Part shown: positions 18,486-29,235 of the stretch, piece by piece
Layout: the number at the start of each line of letters is the position of its first letter
Position numbering within the stretch: position 1 is the first letter of the stretch
NCBI RefSeq assembly: GCF_988243305.1
Contig: NZ_OZ547136.1
Strand: one strand, 5' to 3'
DNA: 64,000 nucleotides
Position numbers and translations under genes: made by a program
Notes under the pieces: model-generated
Seen by the model: the letters and a program-made list of their open reading frames with translations, nothing else
Databases searched by the model: none
Told to the model about the DNA's origin: nothing

Positions 18486-18986
18486 TCAGACTTTCGGCAA
18501 ATCGTAGCGACATAACCATTCATCCGCCGAACGGCGGGCCTCAAGACCGGGGAGTTTTACCCCCTTTGAATAAATCCAGCGGATATACTGCTTACAGGAC
18601 GCGGGCATCTGCCCGGCATTGATCAGGCGCAGAAGCGTGGAGTTGCGAAAGTTCGTTTCACCGGCCCAGAAGATCCACGAAGCCAGCGCCACCGTCTGAC
18701 CACGGGTAAGCGGCACCTGAACATGACGATCGATAGCCGCAAAGGCCCATTTCATGTCCTTTTCCAGCAGTTCCAGACATTCTTCATCGGTTTTTGTCAT
18801 ACCCGGTTTCACATCCGGGCCGGTATGGCCGTGGCAGATGGTGGGGGTGCCGGTGGGGTCGAGATACGTGGTGTTTTCTTTCCCTTCCCAGTAGCCGGTG
18901 TAGTGCGTGGCAATAGTGAACGTCCCGGCTCCGGCCAGAACAAGGGCAATCAGCTTTTTACGCAGTGGCGCGGGGAGTTTTGGCAT
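18486..18986 (-). CDS. endolysin, lysozyme-like with N-terminal signal-anchor-release (SAR) segment
   Basis: 166 aa; hydrophobic N-terminus LIALVLAGAGTFTIA then lysozyme-like body. Confidence 0.7.
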   Translation of the reverse strand: MPKLPAPLRKKLIALVLAGAGTFTIATHYTGYWEGKENTTYLDPTGTPTICHGHTGPDVKPGMTKTDEECLELLEKDMKWAFAAIDRHVQVPLTRGQTVALASWIFWAGETNFRNSTLLRLINAGQMPASCKQYIRWIYSKGVKLPGLEARRSADEWLCRYDLPKV

Positions 18987-19057: not shown

Positions 19058-19480
19058 TCAGAAAAGCCGGGGCTGCGTGCGCTCCTGATGCAGGCGACGC
19101 TGGTTGCGGATAACGGAGTAAATCTGCGTCTCTGACATCTGGTAATGGCGGCGCAGGGTTTCAATTTTTTCGCCCTGGCTCCAGCGGGAAAAAATTTCAT
19201 TATTGCGCAGTTCGGTGAAAAGGGATTCACCGACCGGGAGATAATAACCACGCCCGCCCATGTACCCGGCCTGTGCGGCTGCAACCTTACGGGCAAGCAT
19301 TCCCGCCTGAGCAGGTTCAATCCCCTGACGGTGCAGTTCAGCACTGATCACATCAACCAGGTCCCGCAGCGTGCCGGGCCAGTTCTTTTTCAGCTCATCA
19401 TCAGGAATATCATCCAGACGGTCAATCAGCGCGTGCAGCTGTTCGCTGTCACCAAACATGCTCATCTGTGTTTCAGCCAT
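19058..19480 (-). CDS. Mor/C-family transcriptional activator
   Basis: 140 aa, C-terminal region resembles Mu Mor/C as I recall it; located between gemA-like gene and lysis genes. Confidence 0.7.
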   Translation of the reverse strand: MAETQMSMFGDSEQLHALIDRLDDIPDDELKKNWPGTLRDLVDVISAELHRQGIEPAQAGMLARKVAAAQAGYMGGRGYYLPVGESLFTELRNNEIFSRWSQGEKIETLRRHYQMSETQIYSVIRNQRRLHQERTQPRLF

Positions 19481-19550: not shown

Positions 19551-20063
19551 TTAAAAGGGGGAGGATTCTTCATACAGCCTGCAAACGCGCTCATAACTCA
19601 TCACTGTACGCGCTGACATCCCCAGCACATCCAGCATCTTGCGGCGGTGCCAGCGTTTGAGACGCTCCAGCACATCAGAGGCCAGCGCGGGGTGTTGTTC
19701 CAGCCACTGCCAGTTAGCCACACCTTCGCCGCCGTTCTGAGCGACCGTCTGCGATTTCACCCAGCGGTTAAGGGCTGTTTCCCCGCCATCAGAGATAAAG
19801 CCCTGCCGGTGCATCACCTTCCAGATGGCGCGAATTTTGGCGGTCACCGTACCCGGTTTTAAGGCCCGGTTAACCGGCTTCTGACGCACTTTAAAACCGC
19901 GTTTTTTGAAAACATCCAGCACGCGGGATAACTCATCCGGTGACATATCCCGGCAACTGGGTTTACCGGTGGCTGCCAGTAGTACGGATGTGTAGGTCTC
20001 ATGGTCAAGCTGTAGATCGCGTTTTGCGACATGTATTAAGGTAATCAGGGAAGCGCGATTCAT
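19551..20063 (-). CDS. GemA-like protein (Mu gp16 family)
   Basis: 170-aa ORF immediately upstream of the Mor-like gene, Mu order. Confidence 0.65.
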   Translation of the reverse strand: MNRASLITLIHVAKRDLQLDHETYTSVLLAATGKPSCRDMSPDELSRVLDVFKKRGFKVRQKPVNRALKPGTVTAKIRAIWKVMHRQGFISDGGETALNRWVKSQTVAQNGGEGVANWQWLEQHPALASDVLERLKRWHRRKMLDVLGMSARTVMSYERVCRLYEESSPF

Positions 20064-20127: not shown

Positions 20128-20475
20128 ATGAAAATAGATTACGATGAAGTATTAAGTATTCTCACAACTTTTCAGGATGCTGAAACACCTTTCCTTACAC
20201 TACAGGATCTGGGCATGGCTGAGGCAGAAGGAGAGGAAAAGGATAAAAAAGTTTTTCATCTTATGCTTCTCGCTGATAATGGCTCAATTGTTAATGGTGA
20301 TATGCAGTCAGAAACACCCAAATATATTGGTTTCTTTTTCCATTCTCTGGGCGTTGGTTTCAGAAACACGCCCATTATGCTTACCCAGCAGGGGCATGAT
20401 TTAGCTAACGCCCTGAGAAAAAACCAATCCTTGAAAGAATCAAAAAGGAGTTTACAGACGCACCATTTGATCTAA
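20128..20475 (+). CDS. hypothetical protein, opposite-strand AT-rich cargo gene
   Basis: 115-aa ORF with AAAGG ribosome-binding site 8 nt upstream of ATG; only plus-strand gene inside the minus-strand phage operons. Confidence 0.55.
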   Translation: MKIDYDEVLSILTTFQDAETPFLTLQDLGMAEAEGEEKDKKVFHLMLLADNGSIVNGDMQSETPKYIGFFFHSLGVGFRNTPIMLTQQGHDLANALRKNQSLKESKRSLQTHHLI

Positions 20476-22050: not shown

Positions 22051-22566
22051 TCACCCCCTGACTCGCTTTTCAGCAGCATAAAACTCATCAGACAGTATTT
22101 CGGTCATTTTCTGTTTTGCGGGTTTTACGCCGCACTGAAGGTAAATCACATCGTCAACGCAGAACCACTTCACAGGGCCAAACAGGATTGCCGAGAAATC
22201 AATACCCAGCCAGAACAACAGCGCATCGGTTCTGGCATACGTGACGGGCGAATATTCACGCCACAGACTGTTCAGTTCATCAGAGGCAACACGCAGGGTT
22301 TTAGGGATACGTGATGTGCGCGGTGTGCAGCTCCAGCCATTCGACGCAGTCGGTTTTCGCCATAAGTCGCGATGAAAAGGATATTTGTCCTCCGTAAAAC
22401 GCAGTCCCTTAAAGCAAAATCCACTGATACCGGATACAAATACCGACCGGCACGCAACATTCAGCACGGCCTCAAGGCGTTTTGCCTCATCCTTAACTTT
22501 CTGGCAGTCCTGCTGGTATTTTTGCCACGCAGCCAGCGCGGAAGGGTTTGATGTTTTAAAGAACAT
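22051..22566 (-). CDS. hypothetical early-region protein
   Basis: 171-aa ORF. Confidence 0.5.
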   Translation of the reverse strand: MFFKTSNPSALAAWQKYQQDCQKVKDEAKRLEAVLNVACRSVFVSGISGFCFKGLRFTEDKYPFHRDLWRKPTASNGWSCTPRTSRIPKTLRVASDELNSLWREYSPVTYARTDALLFWLGIDFSAILFGPVKWFCVDDVIYLQCGVKPAKQKMTEILSDEFYAAEKRVRG

Positions 22567-23099
22567 TACGCCACCTCCGCAGATATCCCGGCAGGCGCTG
22601 CTGTCCGGTCAACAATCAGGTAGCGCAGAACATGTTCAGTGATATTCCAGCCGCTTAAACCGCAGATAATGACGCCCAGGCGTATGTCGATATACGCCAT
22701 CACAAACTGGGGCACGCCTTCTTTCATGGCCTGCTCATCAACTTCAGCCACCACATAAACGGTTTCACAGGTCAGAACGCCCTGAGCAAATTCCCACGCC
22801 ATCGACGGAATATCATGCCCCTCAATCCATGGCAGGGATTTTCTGAAGCCGCACCACTGAACATCATCAGCCGCAGATTCCTGGCTGCATTTGCGACGAA
22901 CCGGCTGCACCGGGCGGGGGCGCGGAATATCATAAAAACCGTTACATTCCGTCAGCACGCCTGCATCAACCGCATCACGCAGAAAATAAACCATGGAGGA
23001 TGGCGGCATATTCATTTTTTCAGCCAGTACACCGCAGGTCAGGCGGCCATAAATACGCAGCCAGTTTTTAACCCCTTCAAGCACTTTTGCATCAATCAT
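22566..23099 (-). CDS. hypothetical early-region protein
   Basis: 177-aa ORF. Confidence 0.5.
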   Translation of the reverse strand: MIDAKVLEGVKNWLRIYGRLTCGVLAEKMNMPPSSMVYFLRDAVDAGVLTECNGFYDIPRPRPVQPVRRKCSQESAADDVQWCGFRKSLPWIEGHDIPSMAWEFAQGVLTCETVYVVAEVDEQAMKEGVPQFVMAYIDIRLGVIICGLSGWNITEHVLRYLIVDRTAAPAGISAEVA

Positions 23100-23244
23100 G
23101 ATTTATTTCCCCACCACATTATTAATGACGATATAAACGTATTTCATATTTCTTAACCCTTATTTTCTGTTTTCAGGCGCAAGCAGTCCCCTGACGCGAG
23201 CGCCATAATTAAAATGAAGTGATATTTAATTGATTAATGCGGTG

Positions 23245-23775
23245 TTATTTATTCAGTCCGGCGTCCTGTTCAAAAGGCTCGACATAAAAACTTTCAGCGC
23301 CTTTATTCACCTTGATACCGGCAATGCCTTTCACCGCATCCGGCTCCGCCAGGACGGCTTCCTTGTTCACTTCCTCTTTCGTGCGGATGAAACGCTCAAG
23401 CCCCATACGGCGCAGCATTTCAATCACACCTTCCACATCACGGCTGACGCTGCATGATGGCGTTCCCAGCCGCCATGACACCGTTCCGGTGGTCAGATTG
23501 GCTGTTTTGGTTTTGCCGCCGTTCGTCAGCTCATCACGGTTGGTTTTGCACCAGTCCTGAATCCCTTTAAAAAGCACTTTGATTTGCTTTTTAAGATTTT
23601 CAATCTGCGGCGTATAACGGGCGGTGATTTCTGCCACTTCGTCATTCATCGCCGTTTCCAGGCGCAGCGCCTCTCGCTGAATATCTCCCAGGGTGCGGAT
23701 ATCACGGCTGACTTCTTCCCGGGTCTGCGGTGCCGCCTCGGCTGCGGCCTTTAATTTTGTAACGCGTTTAGCCAT
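23245..23775 (-). CDS. gam: Gam host-nuclease inhibitor (Mu Gam-like DNA end-binding protein)
   Basis: 176 aa; translation closely resembles Mu Gam as I recall it (…DELTNGGKTKTANLTTGTVSWR…). Confidence 0.85.
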   Translation of the reverse strand: MAKRVTKLKAAAEAAPQTREEVSRDIRTLGDIQREALRLETAMNDEVAEITARYTPQIENLKKQIKVLFKGIQDWCKTNRDELTNGGKTKTANLTTGTVSWRLGTPSCSVSRDVEGVIEMLRRMGLERFIRTKEEVNKEAVLAEPDAVKGIAGIKVNKGAESFYVEPFEQDAGLNK

Positions 23776-24903: not shown

Positions 24904-25131
24904 TTAGCTGACTTGTTTCGCACCAACAGAACGGCATATTCCGCTGTAAACTTCTGTCGCACCTTCGCGATCAAGTCCGGCAGATATCACCATTCGTGTG
25001 CGGTCATTAAATTCAAAAAGTAAATCGCCACATTCTTTATTTTCGGCCAGTGAAATCACCTTCACGTTATCGAAATTAACCAGGTAAAAGCGTCCGTAAA
25101 TATCAGGAATATTAAATACCGCCATAATCAC
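24904..25131 (-). CDS. hypothetical small protein in the Mu kil position
   Basis: 75-aa ORF immediately downstream of B; positional inference only. Confidence 0.45.
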   Translation of the reverse strand: MIMAVFNIPDIYGRFYLVNFDNVKVISLAENKECGDLLFEFNDRTRMVISAGLDREGATEVYSGICRSVGAKQVS

Positions 25132-26069
25132 ACCTGTGAGAGTAATTCAGGGTTGGTATAAACCTCTTTAAAGGCCGCATTAATATGTTTTTCTGTCAGC
25201 GCCGCGCCTTCACCGCTGGCGGTGAGCCACGCCTGGTTAAGCGTATGTGTCAGAACGCGTAACGCTCCCGGCTTTTCAGCGATAGCCTGCATGACGGCCA
25301 GCTCAGCCTCACCACTGATCCCCCACGCCATGGCAATGGCCAGCACATCCGCCTTTTTGGCCTTGCGAAGTTGTTTTGTACGGGCAAGACGGCTGAACAG
25401 GCGCGATAAATCATCAAAGGCGCGGCGTCCACCTTTAAACAATCCGCGCGGGTTACCAATAAGCACCATCCCGATCCCCGTGGCGTCCTGAATTGCCCGG
25501 AGTTGCTCCAGACCGTCAATACCAAGATGATCCGCCTCATCCACAATCACCAGTCCACGCGTTCCCATCAGGCGACGGCGGATGGCGCGGGATAATGCCC
25601 CTTTGTTCGCGCGGGTGTAATCAATCCCCAGCGCATCGGCCAGCTCCAGCAGACACTCCGTGACGCTGGAGTGCGCGGGTGACAGGGTGATCATCCAGGT
25701 GTTTGGTTGCTCCTGGCAGTAATTACGGGCAGTGGCCGTTTTACCCACACCCGGTACGCCCACAATAACGTTAATACAGCCCATCAGGCGAACCGCCTGA
25801 AACAGTGCGCGCAGCTCCTGGACTGTCTGAGTTTCCACAAACTGCGGCGGTTCCGGCAGTGCGCTTTGTTTATTCCAGTTCTCATACCAGGAGCGCAGGG
25901 AAGCAGCCACAGCAGCGTTATCGCCTTTATATTTTCCCTTACGGAAAGCCGATAATGTGCCGTCGGAAATTCCCGCCTCTCTGGCGATGGCATACTGCGT
26001 CAGTACGCCGCCATCAATAAGTTCATCAATGGTCTTGATTACATCGTTAATATCGGTCATATTATTCAC
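25128..26069 (-). CDS. transposition ATPase B (MuB-like AAA+ target DNA activator)
   Basis: 313 aa, Walker A GVPGVGKT, translation resembles Mu B. Confidence 0.9.
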   Translation of the reverse strand: MNNMTDINDVIKTIDELIDGGVLTQYAIAREAGISDGTLSAFRKGKYKGDNAAVAASLRSWYENWNKQSALPEPPQFVETQTVQELRALFQAVRLMGCINVIVGVPGVGKTATARNYCQEQPNTWMITLSPAHSSVTECLLELADALGIDYTRANKGALSRAIRRRLMGTRGLVIVDEADHLGIDGLEQLRAIQDATGIGMVLIGNPRGLFKGGRRAFDDLSRLFSRLARTKQLRKAKKADVLAIAMAWGISGEAELAVMQAIAEKPGALRVLTHTLNQAWLTASGEGAALTEKHINAAFKEVYTNPELLSQV

Positions 26070-26142: not shown

Positions 26143-28233
26143 TCAGGCCAGCGGATCACTTTCTTTTAATTTCGCTTCGAGCAACTGCAATCCCCGCTGG
26201 AAATTACGCTCGTATTCTTCATCAGGTTCATCGTCAGCGACCGGTTGCTGAACGATCACCGTATTACCCACAGGGCGGTATATATTTTCCAGCCACGGCT
26301 CCTGTGGCTTGTGCTCCAGCACGTTGACAATCTCATCCTCGGCATCACGGATTTTTTCCTCTGCGCGTTTACGCATGCCTTTAAGGCGCTGCTGCTGTTT
26401 GTGGTATTCCGCGCTGACCGGGAAGGCTTCGCGTTTATTGCCGTCCCATACCGCCTCGCAAATCACGCTGCCATCCAGGCGACGTACGGTAATTCGTTCG
26501 GCATCATGAATGTCATAGCTGATAAGCACCTTACGACCATGCTCGTCACGCAGCTCGGGCGCGTAGTAAATATTATTCAGCCAGCGTATTTCACAGCGTC
26601 TTACAGGGCGCTCCACCATCGGCCGGAACATATCCCGCAGTTCAACATCGGACAGCCATTCAATTTCCGTGTCCTCTTCCGCCAGGCGTTTTTTTCTGAA
26701 CTCCGCCGGGCTGTAATGTTTACCGTTCGGCTTCATGGGTAATTCATCGTGCGGCCGGTTGTTGTACCACTCAACACCATCACGAATGGCATCAATCAGT
26801 TCAGCCCAGGACGGTGAATCACGCATCGCTGACTGCTGCCGGGCGTTCAGCCGTTTGCCCTGTTGCAGGGCAGTAAATGCCGAGCGTAAATCGCGGTTGG
26901 TTTTGCGTAACGTCTCGCGATCTGCACCTTTCCCGAAATAGGTGCGGTATTTACGGGCTATGCGCATCGGTAATGTGCGGTTAAGCCGTTCGATAATGCC
27001 TCGTCCCTGCGGATTACCGGCAATCCCGGTCGGGTGATTAATCCCCAGTCGCGGCAGTATCCCCACAACCTCCTTATCCAGGATGTCGGCGGTTTCCCCG
27101 GAGCCGTTATCCGAGTAATACAGAAACGGTTTGCCGTGATGGCGAATGCCGTGCTGTATGGCACCGGCTACGGCGAAAACATTTTCAGCCAGGTCAAGGC
27201 TCCAGCCCACCACAAAGCGCGTGCCACCGTCGATAACAAAGGTCACTTCCGGTGCAAATGGCCGACCGTGAACCGGGTGTGCGCATTTCAGCTTCATGCC
27301 GTGACCGTCACCAATCCAGACATAATTCACCGGCATTTTTGACCAGTCGCGGCGCGTGAATCCCTCAAGCTGGCGGTATTCACTGCCGGTCACCCGGCCT
27401 TTTTGTTTCACCACTTCCGGCAGTTTCTTCATTGCGCGGCGAATGGTGTCATAAGACGGCATGATATCGAGCATATAAGGCTCATCAGCGTGCCGGTGCT
27501 GCCATTCAGCGACAAAATCCTCGTAAGCCTCGGTCATTGGTCGGCCGTTTGACTGGCGATACTGCGCCAGAAATTCGGGCAGCCAGTTAATATCTTCGGC
27601 TTTTATTTCCTGGCGCTTACCCGGTGCCAGTAAAAGCAGGCGTTCAGCGGCGTTCTGCGCCTTGTTAAAGGCCGCAATCCAGCGTTTCAGCGTGATTTCA
27701 CTTAACGCGCGGCTGTTTCCCTTTTTGGCGTTCGCCGTCTCAACCATTGCCACAATGCGCTCGTCCAGCTGCGAACGTGCCAGGTTGTCAACGATAAACC
27801 GGATAGCCTTCGCACAGCTGAAACCAGGTTGTTGCGCGACTTTCAGAACTTCGCTGACGATCGCGATTCGTGCATCAGCCACCTGGCGCTGGTTTTCAGT
27901 CAGGGCATTAAGGCGTTCGACCATCAGTTGTGGTGATCCGCGATATGCCTCCACCGCATCAACCACGGCAGGCGAGCGTCTGGCCTTTGTCACCACTGGA
28001 GCCGGTGATTCATCGACTTTTTGAGTCATCAGTTGCAGGGCGTAGCGTTCACGTAATGCCTGCTGCGTCACTTCAGGTAAACAGTCGATGCTGTATTCAG
28101 TTGCTTTAGAGCCTGAGCGACGACGGGAACAACAGCTTTTCCCTTGTACGTAACGTTGTAATGCCTGGCGAATACCTTTTGTTGTAGCAGGCATTCCGGG
28201 CGCACCAATCAGTTCTTTTGCAATGACATACAT
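26143..28233 (-). CDS. DDE transposase A (MuA-like)
   Basis: 696-aa ORF between ner and B. Confidence 0.85.
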   Translation of the reverse strand: MYVIAKELIGAPGMPATTKGIRQALQRYVQGKSCCSRRRSGSKATEYSIDCLPEVTQQALRERYALQLMTQKVDESPAPVVTKARRSPAVVDAVEAYRGSPQLMVERLNALTENQRQVADARIAIVSEVLKVAQQPGFSCAKAIRFIVDNLARSQLDERIVAMVETANAKKGNSRALSEITLKRWIAAFNKAQNAAERLLLLAPGKRQEIKAEDINWLPEFLAQYRQSNGRPMTEAYEDFVAEWQHRHADEPYMLDIMPSYDTIRRAMKKLPEVVKQKGRVTGSEYRQLEGFTRRDWSKMPVNYVWIGDGHGMKLKCAHPVHGRPFAPEVTFVIDGGTRFVVGWSLDLAENVFAVAGAIQHGIRHHGKPFLYYSDNGSGETADILDKEVVGILPRLGINHPTGIAGNPQGRGIIERLNRTLPMRIARKYRTYFGKGADRETLRKTNRDLRSAFTALQQGKRLNARQQSAMRDSPSWAELIDAIRDGVEWYNNRPHDELPMKPNGKHYSPAEFRKKRLAEEDTEIEWLSDVELRDMFRPMVERPVRRCEIRWLNNIYYAPELRDEHGRKVLISYDIHDAERITVRRLDGSVICEAVWDGNKREAFPVSAEYHKQQQRLKGMRKRAEEKIRDAEDEIVNVLEHKPQEPWLENIYRPVGNTVIVQQPVADDEPDEEYERNFQRGLQLLEAKLKESDPLA

Positions 28234-28483: not shown

Positions 28484-28650
28484 ACTTCCTCTATTCTAAA
28501 AAGTTACCCGCGCGGATATTCGTGCGGATATCTGTACGGGTAAATAATAGAACAAACAAAAGAACCAAATCAAGGTATTTTGTTCTTTTTATTCTTTGCG
28601 GTGTTTTTGTTATTAATATCAATAAGATAAATAAAAAGGAACCTGAGAGC
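28484..28650. promoter_or_regulatory. divergent promoter/operator region between ner and repressor
   Basis: Direct repeats GCGGATAT at 28512 and 28524; inverted repeat AAAAGAAC (28556-28565) / GTTCTTTT (28582-28590). Confidence 0.5.
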
Positions 28651-29235
28651 ATGAACATGAAAAACAGTTCTTTTCTCGACGAAGGAAAAGAACCAGTGAT
28701 CGAACGGATTTTTCGTCTTGCAGAGCGTTACAAATCGAGAAGTGAGGCGGCTAGAGCATGGGGAATAAACGTTCAGACATTGCAGAACTACTACAAAAGG
28801 AGAAACAATCAGCCGCCACCACAACCAAGAAAGCACCATCTCCAGAACATTGCAGAAAGAGAACATGTATCTATGGAGTGGCTGGTCAATGGTTATGGTG
28901 ATGAGCCAAGCATGAAAAAAGAACCAATTGAACAAACAAAAAGAACAAAAAAACAAAGAATTGATGATAGTGATTCCATCATCATGAGGGCGTGGGACTC
29001 GCTAACTTCATCTGAACAAGAGATTTTGTCCAACTTATTGATCAGAAAAGGGGCCGAACTACTAACCGTTTTGCTTGATACAGATATTCAAAAACTGCAC
29101 TCATTGAGCGGAGTCAAAAGAGCACTAGCATTGAGTCTACAAGAGTTACCCGATGATACTGTAAGAGAGATTTATGAAGAATGTGAAGCTAAGGTTAATC
29201 ATTTAAATGTAACCCAGAAAAAGGCTGGTGCGTAA
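28651..29235 (+). CDS. prophage repressor (Mu c position)
   Basis: 194 aa from ATG with AAGGA RBS; divergent from ner. Confidence 0.6.
   Translation: MNMKNSSFLDEGKEPVIERIFRLAERYKSRSEAARAWGINVQTLQNYYKRRNNQPPPQPRKHHLQNIAEREHVSMEWLVNGYGDEPSMKKEPIEQTKRTKKQRIDDSDSIIMRAWDSLTSSEQEILSNLLIRKGAELLTVLLDTDIQKLHSLSGVKRALALSLQELPDDTVREIYEECEAKVNHLNVTQKKAGA

What the first reader, a model, noticed from the sequence alone, without database searches (positions are those of the whole stretch)
23100..23244. AT-rich gap inside the early operon, just upstream of gam
A ~145-bp non-coding AT-rich gap interrupts otherwise tightly coupled early genes and contains the palindrome ttaattgattaa (~23227-23238). It could hold an internal promoter, a regulator binding site or a small RNA.
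Basis: seen in the sequence. Interest (0 to 1): 0.3.

Follow-up and report, generated by a model that had tools for sequence, protein, structure and literature searches.

The report
Conserved RNA hairpin after Mu gam

Summary
The gap is real: 145 bp at 23100-23244, 36% G+C against 51% for the early region. The operon runs on the minus strand, so the gap follows the gam stop codon and precedes a gp11 homologue. The palindrome (23226-23237) is imperfect, at chance level and not conserved.

The gap has two parts.
- **Conserved element (about 23224-23168, minus strand).** A 9-10 nt pure A/U tract abuts a two-tier hairpin, GGCGC..GCGUCAGGG..GCGCC. It occurs in Mu, D108, SfMu, about 6% of complete E. 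coli genomes, distant Mu-like phages whose Gam is about 55% identical, and a BcepMu-like phage. It is single-copy, always in the sense orientation, unannotated and absent from Rfam. The next start codon lies about 12-28 nt downstream, whichever of at least seven gene families follows.
- **Collapsed accessory gene.** The ribosome-binding site and ATG of a DUF5420-family gene survive, but the gene is reduced to a 14-codon ORF.

No sigma-70 promoter, intrinsic terminator or conserved peptide is supported. My best reading is a cis-acting RNA leader in the early mRNA that sets processing, stability or translation of a variable gene slot. The conserved loop suggests a trans-acting factor. Function is inferred, not shown.

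The parts
23245..23775 (-). gam (host-nuclease inhibitor, Ku-like); stop codon TAA at 23247-23245. The gap begins right after it.
   Evidence: ORF list; Pfam PF07352 Phage_Mu_Gam, E 5.5e-42; 57% protein identity to Mu Gam.
23225..23244 (-). A/T-rich spacer after the gam stop (CACCGC-ATTAATCAATTAAA). Poorly conserved.
   Evidence: Sequence; variants in relatives; chance level in shuffles.
23168..23224 (-). Full match to the covariance model of the conserved post-gam element: TATCAC motif, A/U tract, hairpin and 3' flank.
   Evidence: cmsearch with model R1: 74.6 bits, E 6e-15, the only significant hit in the 64-kb window. Homologues in Mu, D108, SfMu and distant Mu-like phages.
23205..23214 (-). 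Pure A/U tract UUUUAAUUAU directly abutting the hairpin. It is invariant in types A, B and C, and is a 9-10 nt U-rich A/U-only tract in all distant members.
   Evidence: Alignments A1, A2 and A6.
23176..23204 (-). Two-tier hairpin. P1 pairs GGCGC (23204-23200) with GCGCC (23180-23176). A 2x2 pyrimidine internal loop follows. P2 pairs G23197-C23183 and C23196-G23184, then, after bulged U23185, G23195-C23186, U23194-A23187 and C23193-G23188. The apical loop is AGGG (23192-23189). The family-wide conserved string GCGUCAGGG lies at 23197-23189.
   Evidence: Present in the MFE and centroid folds. All variants fold at -13 to -22 kcal/mol. Pair counts: 80-81% paired against 32-55% when slid, and 4-5 pairs with changes on both sides.
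23148..23175 (-). 3' flank UGAAAACAGAAAAUAAGGGUUAAGAAAU: the retained leader and degraded Shine-Dalgarno of a lost DUF5420/phrog_2260-family gene.
   Evidence: 106 of 116 nt identical to E. coli STEC299 (L001) from the gam end up to and including that gene's ATG.
23103..23147 (-). 14-codon mini-ORF (MKYVYIVINNVVGK*). It starts at the retained ATG of the lost accessory gene and stops 3 nt before the gp11 ATG. This is a deletion scar.
   Evidence: Relatives carry a 180-192 aa gene here, and both tested versions match phrog_2260. Homology is lost right after the ATG and resumes at TCATGATTG.
22566..23099 (-). gp11 homologue, the next full-length early gene. Its Shine-Dalgarno GGGGAAA is at 23112-23106.
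   Evidence: Pfam PF25754 Gp11_C, E 5.8e-41; phrog_1949.

Best explanation
The gap is the intercistronic region downstream of gam in the early operon of a Mu-like prophage. It has two components.

**1. A conserved RNA element.** It is about 57 nt long and acts in the sense early mRNA. An unstructured 9-10 nt A/U tract sits directly 5' of a G+C-clamped two-tier hairpin whose apical region carries the conserved string GCGUCAGGG. In every phage examined, the ribosome-binding site and start codon of the next gene lie about 12-28 nt 3' of this hairpin, whichever gene that is. I infer that it is a portable 5' leader for a variable accessory-gene slot. The proposed steps are:
- The long early transcript is cut in the A/U tract, in the manner of RNase E, or is otherwise separated there.
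- The stable hairpin then forms the 5' end of the distal message. It protects that message and insulates the downstream ribosome-binding site from whatever lies upstream.
- Expression of the distal, semi-essential genes is thereby set independently of the transposition genes and gam.
- The sequence-conserved loop suggests that a protein or the ribosome also reads the hairpin.

**2. A deletion scar.** This phage has lost the DUF5420-family gene that occupies the slot in its closest relatives. It keeps only that gene's leader, its ATG and a 14-codon ORF that ends 3 nt before gp11. This explains why the gap is 145 nt rather than the 84-98 nt seen in the annotated relatives.

**Shown:** anatomy, conservation, single copy, orientation, fixed distance to the next start codon, pairing with some compensatory changes, and the scar.

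**Inferred:** that it acts as RNA, and the processing, stability or translation mechanism.
For: **Conservation**
- Window and Mu Gam proteins are only 57% identical, and gam-to-gp11 DNA is 67% identical.
- The element nevertheless matches Mu at 33 of 40 nt, with a 15-nt invariant run TTTTAATTATGGCGC.
- Loci chosen without regard to the element, through Gam protein, show the same hairpin after gam in distant Mu-like phages: L236, L240, L243, L250, L266, L274, L276. A core-motif scan adds L311, L312, L319, L325, L333, L353 and L357.
- It also occurs apart from gam: one gene downstream of gam in L257, and in a DUF3164/BcepMu-like phage between unrelated genes in L040, L041 and L130.

**Structure**
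- Every variant folds into the hairpin at -13 to -22 kcal/mol.
- 80-81% of cells pair, against 32-55% when partners are slid. Four to five pairs show changes on both sides. One or two of 500 shuffles reach the observed covariation score.
- Examples are C-G to U-A in P1 of L257 and G-C to A-U at the inner P1 pair.
- The base flanking P1 pairs in 11 of 13 distant members, as C-G, U-A or A-U. This count is from my reading of alignment A6.

**Strand**
- There are 32 G.U cells against 13 A.C cells on the sense strand.
- The element is always co-oriented with the operon.

**Position**
- The next ATG lies about 12-28 nt after the hairpin, in front of at least seven different gene families.

**Copy number and annotation**
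- One copy per phage.
- Present in 321 of 5426 complete E. coli genomes, with no annotated feature under it in any listed record.

**Scar**
-.
Against: - No experimental data were found: no transcript-end mapping or RNA-seq for this interval.
- The five outer pairs are almost invariant, so covariation rests on a few lineages and on related sequences. The alignments were fitted to the model.
- A mere stabiliser hairpin would not need a conserved loop sequence, so the simple processing or stability model is incomplete.
- gp11's 5' coding region is even more conserved between this phage and Mu (38 of 40 nt). Part of the conservation could therefore reflect recent recombination in this block rather than selection on the element.
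- Pseudomonas Mu-like phages such as DMS3 have no gap at all after gam, so the element is dispensable for the Mu lifestyle.
Confidence: 0.4

Rival explanations
1. The hairpin is an operator or recruitment site for a trans-acting factor rather than a passive stabiliser. One version is a phage or host RNA-binding protein that represses or activates translation of the adjacent cistron, as in the T4 gene 43 or MS2 operators or a CsrA site. Another is a nut-like site (linear A/U-rich box plus hairpin) that modifies RNA polymerase for read-through of the distal early region.
For: - The 5' half of the inner stem and the loop (GCGUCA-G/U-GG) are conserved in sequence across all types, while the 3' half varies.
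- The layout, with a conserved linear tract immediately 5' of a hairpin in an intercistronic position just after an early gene, resembles lambda nutR.
- A second UCAGGA often lies 5-8 nt after the hairpin and overlaps the next Shine-Dalgarno. That would fit a dimeric binder.
Against: - No candidate protein co-occurs with the element. The neighbouring genes differ between types A/B, C and E/F.
- There is no boxA-like CGCUCUUA and no GNRA-like pentaloop.
- GGA, which defines CsrA sites, is missing from the loop in about one third of variants.
- No antitermination system is known for Mu (own knowledge).
Confidence: 0.2
2. It is a conserved recombination linker: a module boundary kept similar by repeated homologous exchange between Mu-like phages that swap accessory genes at this point. 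It has no regulatory role of its own.
For: - The element's 3' edge (GCGCC-U) is exactly where at least eight different downstream junctions begin.
- The other anchor, gp11's 5' end, is also unusually conserved (38 of 40 nt).
- The same element appears in an unrelated transposable-phage backbone.
Against: - Hairpin potential is kept through compensatory and register-shifting changes in diverged members.
- The distance to the next start codon is constrained to about 12-28 nt.
- The flank stays A/U-only even where its sequence differs.
- A neutral linker would not keep these properties at 55% Gam identity.
Confidence: 0.15
3. It acts on DNA: either as an internal promoter (possibly activator-dependent) for the distal early or accessory genes, or as a binding site for a DNA-binding protein on the GGCGC-N19-GCGCC inverted repeat and A/T tract.
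For: - AATTAT (4 of 6 matches to TATAAT, with A at position 2 and T at position 6) followed by a G+C-rich discriminator-like GGCGC is invariant in types A, B and C.
- A -35-like TTGACA, TTCACT or TTAACT lies upstream in many members.
- The element travels with downstream cargo, as a moron promoter would.
Against: - The -35-like hexamer is 7-8 bp, not 16-18 bp, from the -10-like hexamer.
- The -10-like hexamer is lost in E/F types (TTATTTC, AAATAC, TTAAAAC).
- The scan finds no sense-strand promoter at the element.
- A start 6-7 nt after AATTAT would fall inside the stem and destroy the conserved hairpin.
- The element does not resemble the Mor- or C-dependent promoter regions of Mu.
- Irregular stems with G.U pairs and bulges fit RNA better than a cruciform or a dyad operator.
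Confidence: 0.1

Closest known systems
RNase III processing hairpins between the early genes of phage T7 (R0.3 to R1.3)
   Same: Irregular stem-loops with internal loops sit in intercistronic regions of a long phage early mRNA, a few tens of nt ahead of the next start codon. They separate the stability and translation of neighbouring cistrons.
   Different: T7 sites have about 20 bp of helix, whereas this hairpin has 10-14 bp. T7 has one site at almost every junction, whereas this element occurs once per phage. There is no sequence similarity, and cleavage has not been tested.
RNase E site plus 5' stem-loop stabilisers (E. coli ompA 5' UTR, papBA intercistronic cleavage, T4 gene 32 leader)
   Same: An A/U-rich single-stranded segment lies next to a stable hairpin that would become the 5' end of the distal message. 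The ribosome-binding site follows shortly after.
   Different: Those elements are not conserved as a sequence family, and none has a conserved loop motif such as GCGUCAGGG. The comparison rests on my own knowledge of those systems and was not tested here.
Lambda-type nut sites (boxA plus boxB)
   Same: A short conserved linear tract is followed by a G+C-stemmed hairpin in the early transcript just after an early gene. It is read in the sense direction only.
   Different: There is no boxA consensus and no 5-nt GNRA-like loop. No N-like protein was identified, and Mu is not known to use antitermination. The hairpin is two-tiered and larger.
REP/BIME intercistronic stabiliser hairpins of enterobacteria
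   Same: G+C-rich imperfect palindromes in untranslated intercistronic regions that can protect neighbouring mRNA segments.
   Different: REPs are dispersed in hundreds of copies on both strands of the host chromosome. This element is single-copy, phage-specific and strand-fixed.

Membership tests
Intrinsic (Rho-independent) terminator | Stable G+C-rich hairpin | tested here: met
   The hairpin is predicted in the MFE and centroid folds, at -13 to -22 kcal/mol across variants.
Intrinsic (Rho-independent) terminator | Run of U immediately 3' of the stem | tested here: not met
   The 3' flank is UGAAAACAG here, and GAAUUC, AAAUUU or UUAUUC elsewhere. The terminator scan finds none in the gap on either strand.
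Sigma-70 promoter | -10 hexamer with A at position 2 and T at position 6, conserved in position | tested here: not met
   AATTAT is present only in types A, B and C. It is replaced by TTATTT, AAATAC or TTAAAA in E/F types.
Sigma-70 promoter | -35 hexamer 16-18 bp upstream of the -10 | tested here: not met
   The -35-like TTNACN lies 7-8 bp from AATTAT. The scan reports no sense-strand promoter at the element. Its only hit (23147..23118) is in the scar, and hits are at chance frequency.
Mor/C-dependent Mu promoter | 16-bp dyad element upstream of a -10, as in Pm, Plys and Pmom | tested here: not met
   The Mu sequences upstream of Mup18, lys and com, where Pm, Plys and Pmom lie, were read directly. 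Nothing similar lies upstream of the element in types A and B. A partial GCCCAATAAC in type C has the wrong spacing.
Lambda-type nut site | boxA consensus plus a boxB hairpin with a 5-nt loop, and a cognate N protein | tested here: not met
   By inspection of alignment A6 there is no CGCUCUUA-like box, and the loop is 4-9 nt with UCAGGG. An N-like protein was not searched for.
RNase III site of T7 type | About two helical turns (roughly 20 bp) of double-stranded RNA | tested here: not met
   10-14 bp in all variants.
RNase E site with protective 5' hairpin | A/U-rich single-stranded segment adjacent to a stable stem-loop | tested here: met
   A 9-10 nt A/U-only tract abuts the stem in all 27 aligned members. 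Folds leave it largely unpaired.
RNase E site with protective 5' hairpin | Cleavage in vivo and dependence of distal mRNA half-life on the hairpin | not testable with these tools
   No transcript-end data were found in the searchable literature.
CsrA binding site | GGA in the apical loop of a short hairpin | tested here: not met
   GGA is absent from the loop in about one third of distinct variants (AGGGGUU, AGGGCUU, AUGGGUU, ACGGGCG, AGAGGGC, AGGUGAC).
Any Rfam 15 family | Score at or above the family's gathering threshold | tested here: not met
   There are no hits at the element even at E up to 10, in the window, in Mu or in an E-type locus.
Dispersed repeat (REP/BIME-like) | Many copies per genome on both strands | tested here: not met
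   One copy per phage and none elsewhere in the 64-kb window or in Mu. The median is one place per E. coli genome that has any.
Small protein gene (leader peptide from the ATG in UUAUGGCGC) | Conserved start codon and reading frame | tested here: not met
   A 1-nt indel shifts the frame between types A and B, giving unrelated peptides. The ATG is absent in E/F types (..UUUCGGCGC..AUACGGCGC).

The most novel reading that the evidence does not exclude
The hairpin, with its conserved GCGUCAGGG apex and A/U box, is a dedicated recognition site for a trans-acting factor: a phage or host RNA-binding protein, or RNA polymerase or the ribosome in a nut-like or standby manner. That factor gates expression of the variable accessory (possibly anti-defence) gene slot of Mu-like phages. 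This would be a previously unrecognised post-transcriptional control point in the Mu early operon.
Probability: 0.2. Interest if true: 0.65.

Novelty: new member of a known kind. Interest (0 to 1): 0.4.

Why it matters
Phage Mu is a paradigm system. Even so, the only sizeable untranslated interval inside its early operon (Mu 6326-6423) carries a conserved structured element that is not annotated in any record I inspected, is absent from Rfam and was not found in the searchable literature.

The element marks the exact boundary between the conserved transposition-gam module and a slot where Mu-like phages exchange accessory genes. If it controls processing, stability or translation, it would explain how the distal 'semi-essential' genes are expressed independently of the transposition genes. 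It would also offer a compact, context-independent expression leader.

For annotation, it is a reliable landmark for the accessory-gene hotspot in Mu-like prophages, which are present in about 6% of complete E. coli genomes.

Tried and rejected
It is imperfect, at chance level (31% of shuffles) and not conserved.
2. **Intrinsic terminator after gam.** No U-tract follows the hairpin on either strand.
3. **Sigma-70 promoter, sense or antisense.** The hexamer spacing is wrong. The antisense CATAAT has no -35 and is not conserved in E/F types.
4. **Mor/C-type promoter.** I compared the element with the Mu sequences where Pm, Plys and Pmom lie. The GCCCAATAAC resemblance in type C has the wrong spacing.
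5. **Leader peptide from the conserved ATG.** The frame is not conserved and the ATG is absent in distant members. In-frame continuation into cargo in about 4 of 8 junction types is, by my rough estimate (about 1.7 expected), not above chance.
6. **A second A/U-only hairpin upstream** (AAUUAAA/UUUAAUU). Changes in its 5' arm are not compensated, so I do not claim it.
7. **Sigma-54, CRP, IHF, LexA and CRISPR-repeat mimicry.** These were checked by eye against consensus sequences I recalled. None is a consistent match across types. This is a lead-level check only.
8. **Hairpin in L169/L188.** This metagenome hit has the same flank but lies between convergent genes of an unrelated contig. I treat it as a chance or unrelated hairpin.
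9. **GTDB species-representative genomes.** The scan returned only chance hits. The exact A/B/C form is confined to prophages that are absent from the representatives.
10. **Literature and sequence-string searches.** They found nothing on this interval. One 13-mer hit was an unrelated Klebsiella qPCR primer.
11. **Solved structures and NCBIfam.** They gave nothing for gp11 or its neighbours.

Full report
**What is at the coordinates.** Window 18-28 kb is the early region of a Mu-like prophage, read on the minus strand.
- The gene order is transposase A (26143-28233), B (25128-26069), a run of small overlapping ORFs, gam (23245-23775, Pfam Phage_Mu_Gam), the gap, and a gp11 homologue (22566-23099, Pfam Gp11_C).
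- More small genes follow, then GemA (19551-20063), a Mor-family activator (19058-19480) and a 166-aa ORF (18486-18986) in the position of Mu's endolysin gene; I did not test its family.
- The gap 23100-23244 is real. It is 145 bp at 35.9% G+C, against 50.6% for the region, and it is the largest same-strand intergenic interval between A and GemA.

**The palindrome.** The string ttaattgattaa is at 23226-23237. It is two 5-nt arms around a 2-nt spacer, not a perfect palindrome.
- 31% of dinucleotide shuffles of the gap contain at least as many such repeats.
- Close relatives carry different A/T strings there, and distant relatives carry nothing comparable.
- I treat it as a by-product of A/T richness.

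**The equivalent interval in Mu and relatives.** The annotated relatives keep a non-coding interval of 84-98 nt directly after gam.
- These are Mu itself (6326-6423, 98 nt), D108, SfMu and two E. coli prophages.
- Alignment shows that the first 75 nt or so after the stop codon are much better conserved than the flanking DNA.
- The window and Mu Gam proteins are 57% identical, and the gam-to-gp11 block is 67% identical at the DNA level.
- The element matches at 33 of 40 nt, including an invariant 15-mer TTTTAATTATGGCGC.
- It is not the single best-conserved stretch. Two segments in gp11's 5' coding region reach 38 of 40 and 36 of 40, and I come back to this in the caveats below.

**Anatomy in the window (minus strand).**
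- A TATCAC motif at 23224-23219.
- A pure A/U tract UUUUAAUUAU at 23214-23205.
- A 29-nt hairpin at 23204-23176. Its outer stem is GGCGC/GCGCC. A 2x2 pyrimidine internal loop follows, then an inner stem with a bulged U, then an AGGG loop.
- A 3' flank UGAAAA.
- The hairpin appears in the MFE and centroid folds on both strands.
- No U-run follows it, the terminator scan finds nothing in the gap, and the promoter scan gives a single weak hit in the distal part of the gap at chance frequency.
- Rfam gives nothing, even at E up to 10.

**How wide the family is.**
- Exact-string scans of IMG/VR and JGI metagenomes recovered three forms.
  - Type A is like the window.
  - Type B is like Mu, D108 and SfMu.
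  - Type C lies in a different transposable-phage backbone. There a DUF3164 gene and a 73-aa ORF lie upstream, a DUF2786/DUF7168 gene lies directly downstream, and a 3'-5' exonuclease gene follows further on.
- Those scans require the string, so they cannot measure its conservation. I therefore fetched 80 loci through Gam protein alone and read what follows gam.
- Besides types A and B, several phages with Gam about 55% identical to the query carry the same hairpin with diverged flanks: L236, L240, L243, L250, L266, L274 and L276. In L257 it lies one gene further downstream.
- A scan for the hairpin core added L311, L312, L319, L325, L333, L353 and L357 among many chance hits in G+C-rich contigs. 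The true members are easily told apart by their A/T flank.
- The family consensus, in order, is:
  - TTNAC, then 4-5 nt;
  - a 9-10 nt A/U-only tract;
  - GGCGC, then 2-3 nt;
  - GCGUCA(G/U)GG, a variable 3' half that pairs back, then GCGCC;
  - GAAW, often as AAUUCAGGA.
- Pseudomonas phages of the DMS3 type have no gap after gam.
- Haemophilus SuMu has a 58-nt gap with an unrelated strong hairpin whose 3' arm is the next gene's Shine-Dalgarno.
- The element occurs once per phage. It is the only hit in the 64-kb window and in the whole Mu genome.
- It is found in 321 of 5426 complete E. coli genomes, with no annotated feature under it in any listed record.
- The species-representative genome collection gave only chance hits for the exact A/B/C string.

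**Structure evidence.**
- All distinct variants fold into the hairpin at -13 to -22 kcal/mol.
- On model-fitted alignments of 30 and 27 distinct sequences, 80-81% of cells pair, against 32-55% when the 3' partners are slid.
- Four to five pairs carry changes on both sides, and only 1-2 of 500 shuffles reach the observed covariation score.
- Concrete examples:
  - C-G to U-A in the outer stem of L257;
  - G-C to A-U at the inner end of the outer stem in type C and L257;
  - the base flanking the stem pairing as C-G, U-A or A-U in 11 of 13 distant members, by my count on alignment A6;
  - register shifts that keep the inner stem.
- The five outer pairs are almost invariant, the sequences are related and the alignment was fitted to the model. 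I therefore rate the structure as supported but not proven.
- G.U cells outnumber A.C cells 32 to 13 on the sense strand, which mildly favours folding of the sense RNA.

**Position relative to genes.**
- In every member the next start codon lies about 12-28 nt after the hairpin.
- The gene that follows differs:
  - gp11 (Mu, D108);
  - a DUF5420/phrog_2260 protein (SfMu and many STEC prophages);
  - an acidic 84-88 aa phrog_12368 protein;
  - a MazG-like NTP pyrophosphohydrolase fusion;
  - a phrog_24376 protein;
  - an arginine-rich 101-aa protein;
  - a DUF2786/DUF7168 protein.
- Sequence identity between phages ends exactly at GCGCC-U.
- The element therefore behaves as a portable 5' leader, placed in front of whatever occupies a variable slot at the boundary between the conserved transposition-gam module and the variable distal early genes.

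**Why the gap is 145 nt here.**
- From the gam end through the element to an ATG at 23147-23145, the window is 106 of 116 nt identical to E. coli STEC299. In that strain the ATG starts a 180-aa phrog_2260 gene that ends 3 nt before gp11.
- In the window, homology stops right after the ATG and resumes at TCATGATTG.
- What remains is a 14-codon ORF (23147-23103) that stops 3 nt before the gp11 ATG.
- Twelve viral contigs show the same collapsed form, and the two listed E. coli genomes whose match is a single 551-bp piece of 99.5-99.6% identity must carry it too.
- About a third of the 'gap' is thus the scar of a lost accessory gene.

**Ideas tested and dropped.**
- The conserved ATG inside UUAUGGCGC opens a short ORF. 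However, types A and B differ by a 1-nt indel, so the peptides are unrelated, and E/F types have no ATG there.
- A sense promoter fails on spacing, and its -10-like hexamer is lost in E/F types.
- The antisense CATAAT has no -35 and is likewise not conserved.
- Comparison with the Mu sequences where Pm, Plys and Pmom lie shows no shared activator site.
- GGA is missing from the loop in about a third of variants, which argues against CsrA as the general ligand.

**Interpretation.**
- My best-supported reading, at confidence about 0.4 for the mechanism and higher for 'cis-acting sense RNA element', is an intercistronic RNA leader.
- An unstructured A/U tract suits endonucleolytic entry of the RNase E type. 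It lies next to a G+C-clamped hairpin that would cap and protect the distal message and insulate the next ribosome-binding site.
- This would let the variable distal genes be expressed independently of the transposition genes and gam.
- The conserved apical sequence is not explained by that model alone. It points to a trans-acting reader (an operator-like or nut-like role, about 0.2).
- A pure recombination linker (about 0.15) and a DNA-level site or promoter (about 0.1) remain possible.

**Caveats.**
- No transcript-end or expression data for this interval were found in the searchable literature. Older Mu papers in subscription journals are outside that library, so I cannot exclude an earlier description.
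- The unusually high conservation of gp11's 5' coding region shows that this block has its own recombination or selection history, which could inflate the apparent conservation of the element between types A and B.
- The distant E/F and C members are what make selection on the element itself credible.

Noticed in passing
window 23103-23175; L001 1804-2346; L004 1791-2369; L003 1778-2332; L016, L057, L184, L236, L266 and L274 downstream of the element: The position right after the hairpin is an accessory-gene hotspot in Mu-like phages. At least seven unrelated gene families alternate there: gp11, DUF5420/phrog_2260, an acidic 84-88 aa phrog_12368 protein with a poly-D/E tail, a MazG-like NTP pyrophosphohydrolase fusion, phrog_24376, an arginine-rich 101-aa protein, and DUF2786/DUF7168. 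Some phages lack gp11 and gp12 altogether. The acidic and MazG-like cargo look like candidate anti-defence genes.
   Followed up: partly
window 22955-23045 (gp11 5' coding region) versus Mu around 6450-6560: The most conserved DNA between this prophage and Mu in the whole early region lies inside gp11's N-terminal coding part (38 of 40 and 36 of 40 nt identical, synonymous sites included). The rest of gp11 is about 67% identical. This suggests either recent gene conversion or a nucleotide-level constraint. The encoded segment looks like a winged-helix DNA-binding domain.
   Followed up: no
L163 1723-1780 (Haemophilus phage SuMu): SuMu has an unrelated, strong 10-bp hairpin (CCCCCUCUUUG-UC-AAAGAGGGGG) in its 58-nt gap after gam. 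Its 3' arm forms the Shine-Dalgarno of the next gene. This may be a convergent solution at the same position.
   Followed up: no
L040 4741-4783; L041; L130: In the BcepMu-like (type C) phage, the 21 nt between the upstream stop codon and the A/U tract contain GGGTTAACTTAGCCCAATAAC. This is an imperfect dyad that resembles the C-binding site of Mu Pmom (TTATGCCCCAATAACC), but with different spacing to any -10-like hexamer.
   Followed up: partly
window 20128-20475 (+): A 115-aa ORF lies on the opposite strand between the distal early genes and the GemA gene, in the same place as the reverse-oriented gp15 of Mu. It creates the 435-nt same-strand gap there.
   Followed up: no
window 28486-28700: This is the lowest G+C stretch (28-31%) of the 17-30 kb region, just beyond the 5' end of the transposase gene. 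It is presumably the operator and early-promoter region of the prophage.
   Followed up: no
L266 2110-2415: In one E-type phage the gene right after the hairpin encodes an arginine-rich 101-aa protein (..NRRVWRKWRRSVGK..), reminiscent of arginine-rich RNA-binding motifs. It is a single case.
   Followed up: no
E. coli genome hits H152-H191: The 61-nt element is found in 321 of 5426 complete E. coli genomes, including O157:H7, O111, O103, O121 and E. coli W. In every listed RefSeq record, nothing is annotated under it.
   Followed up: partly
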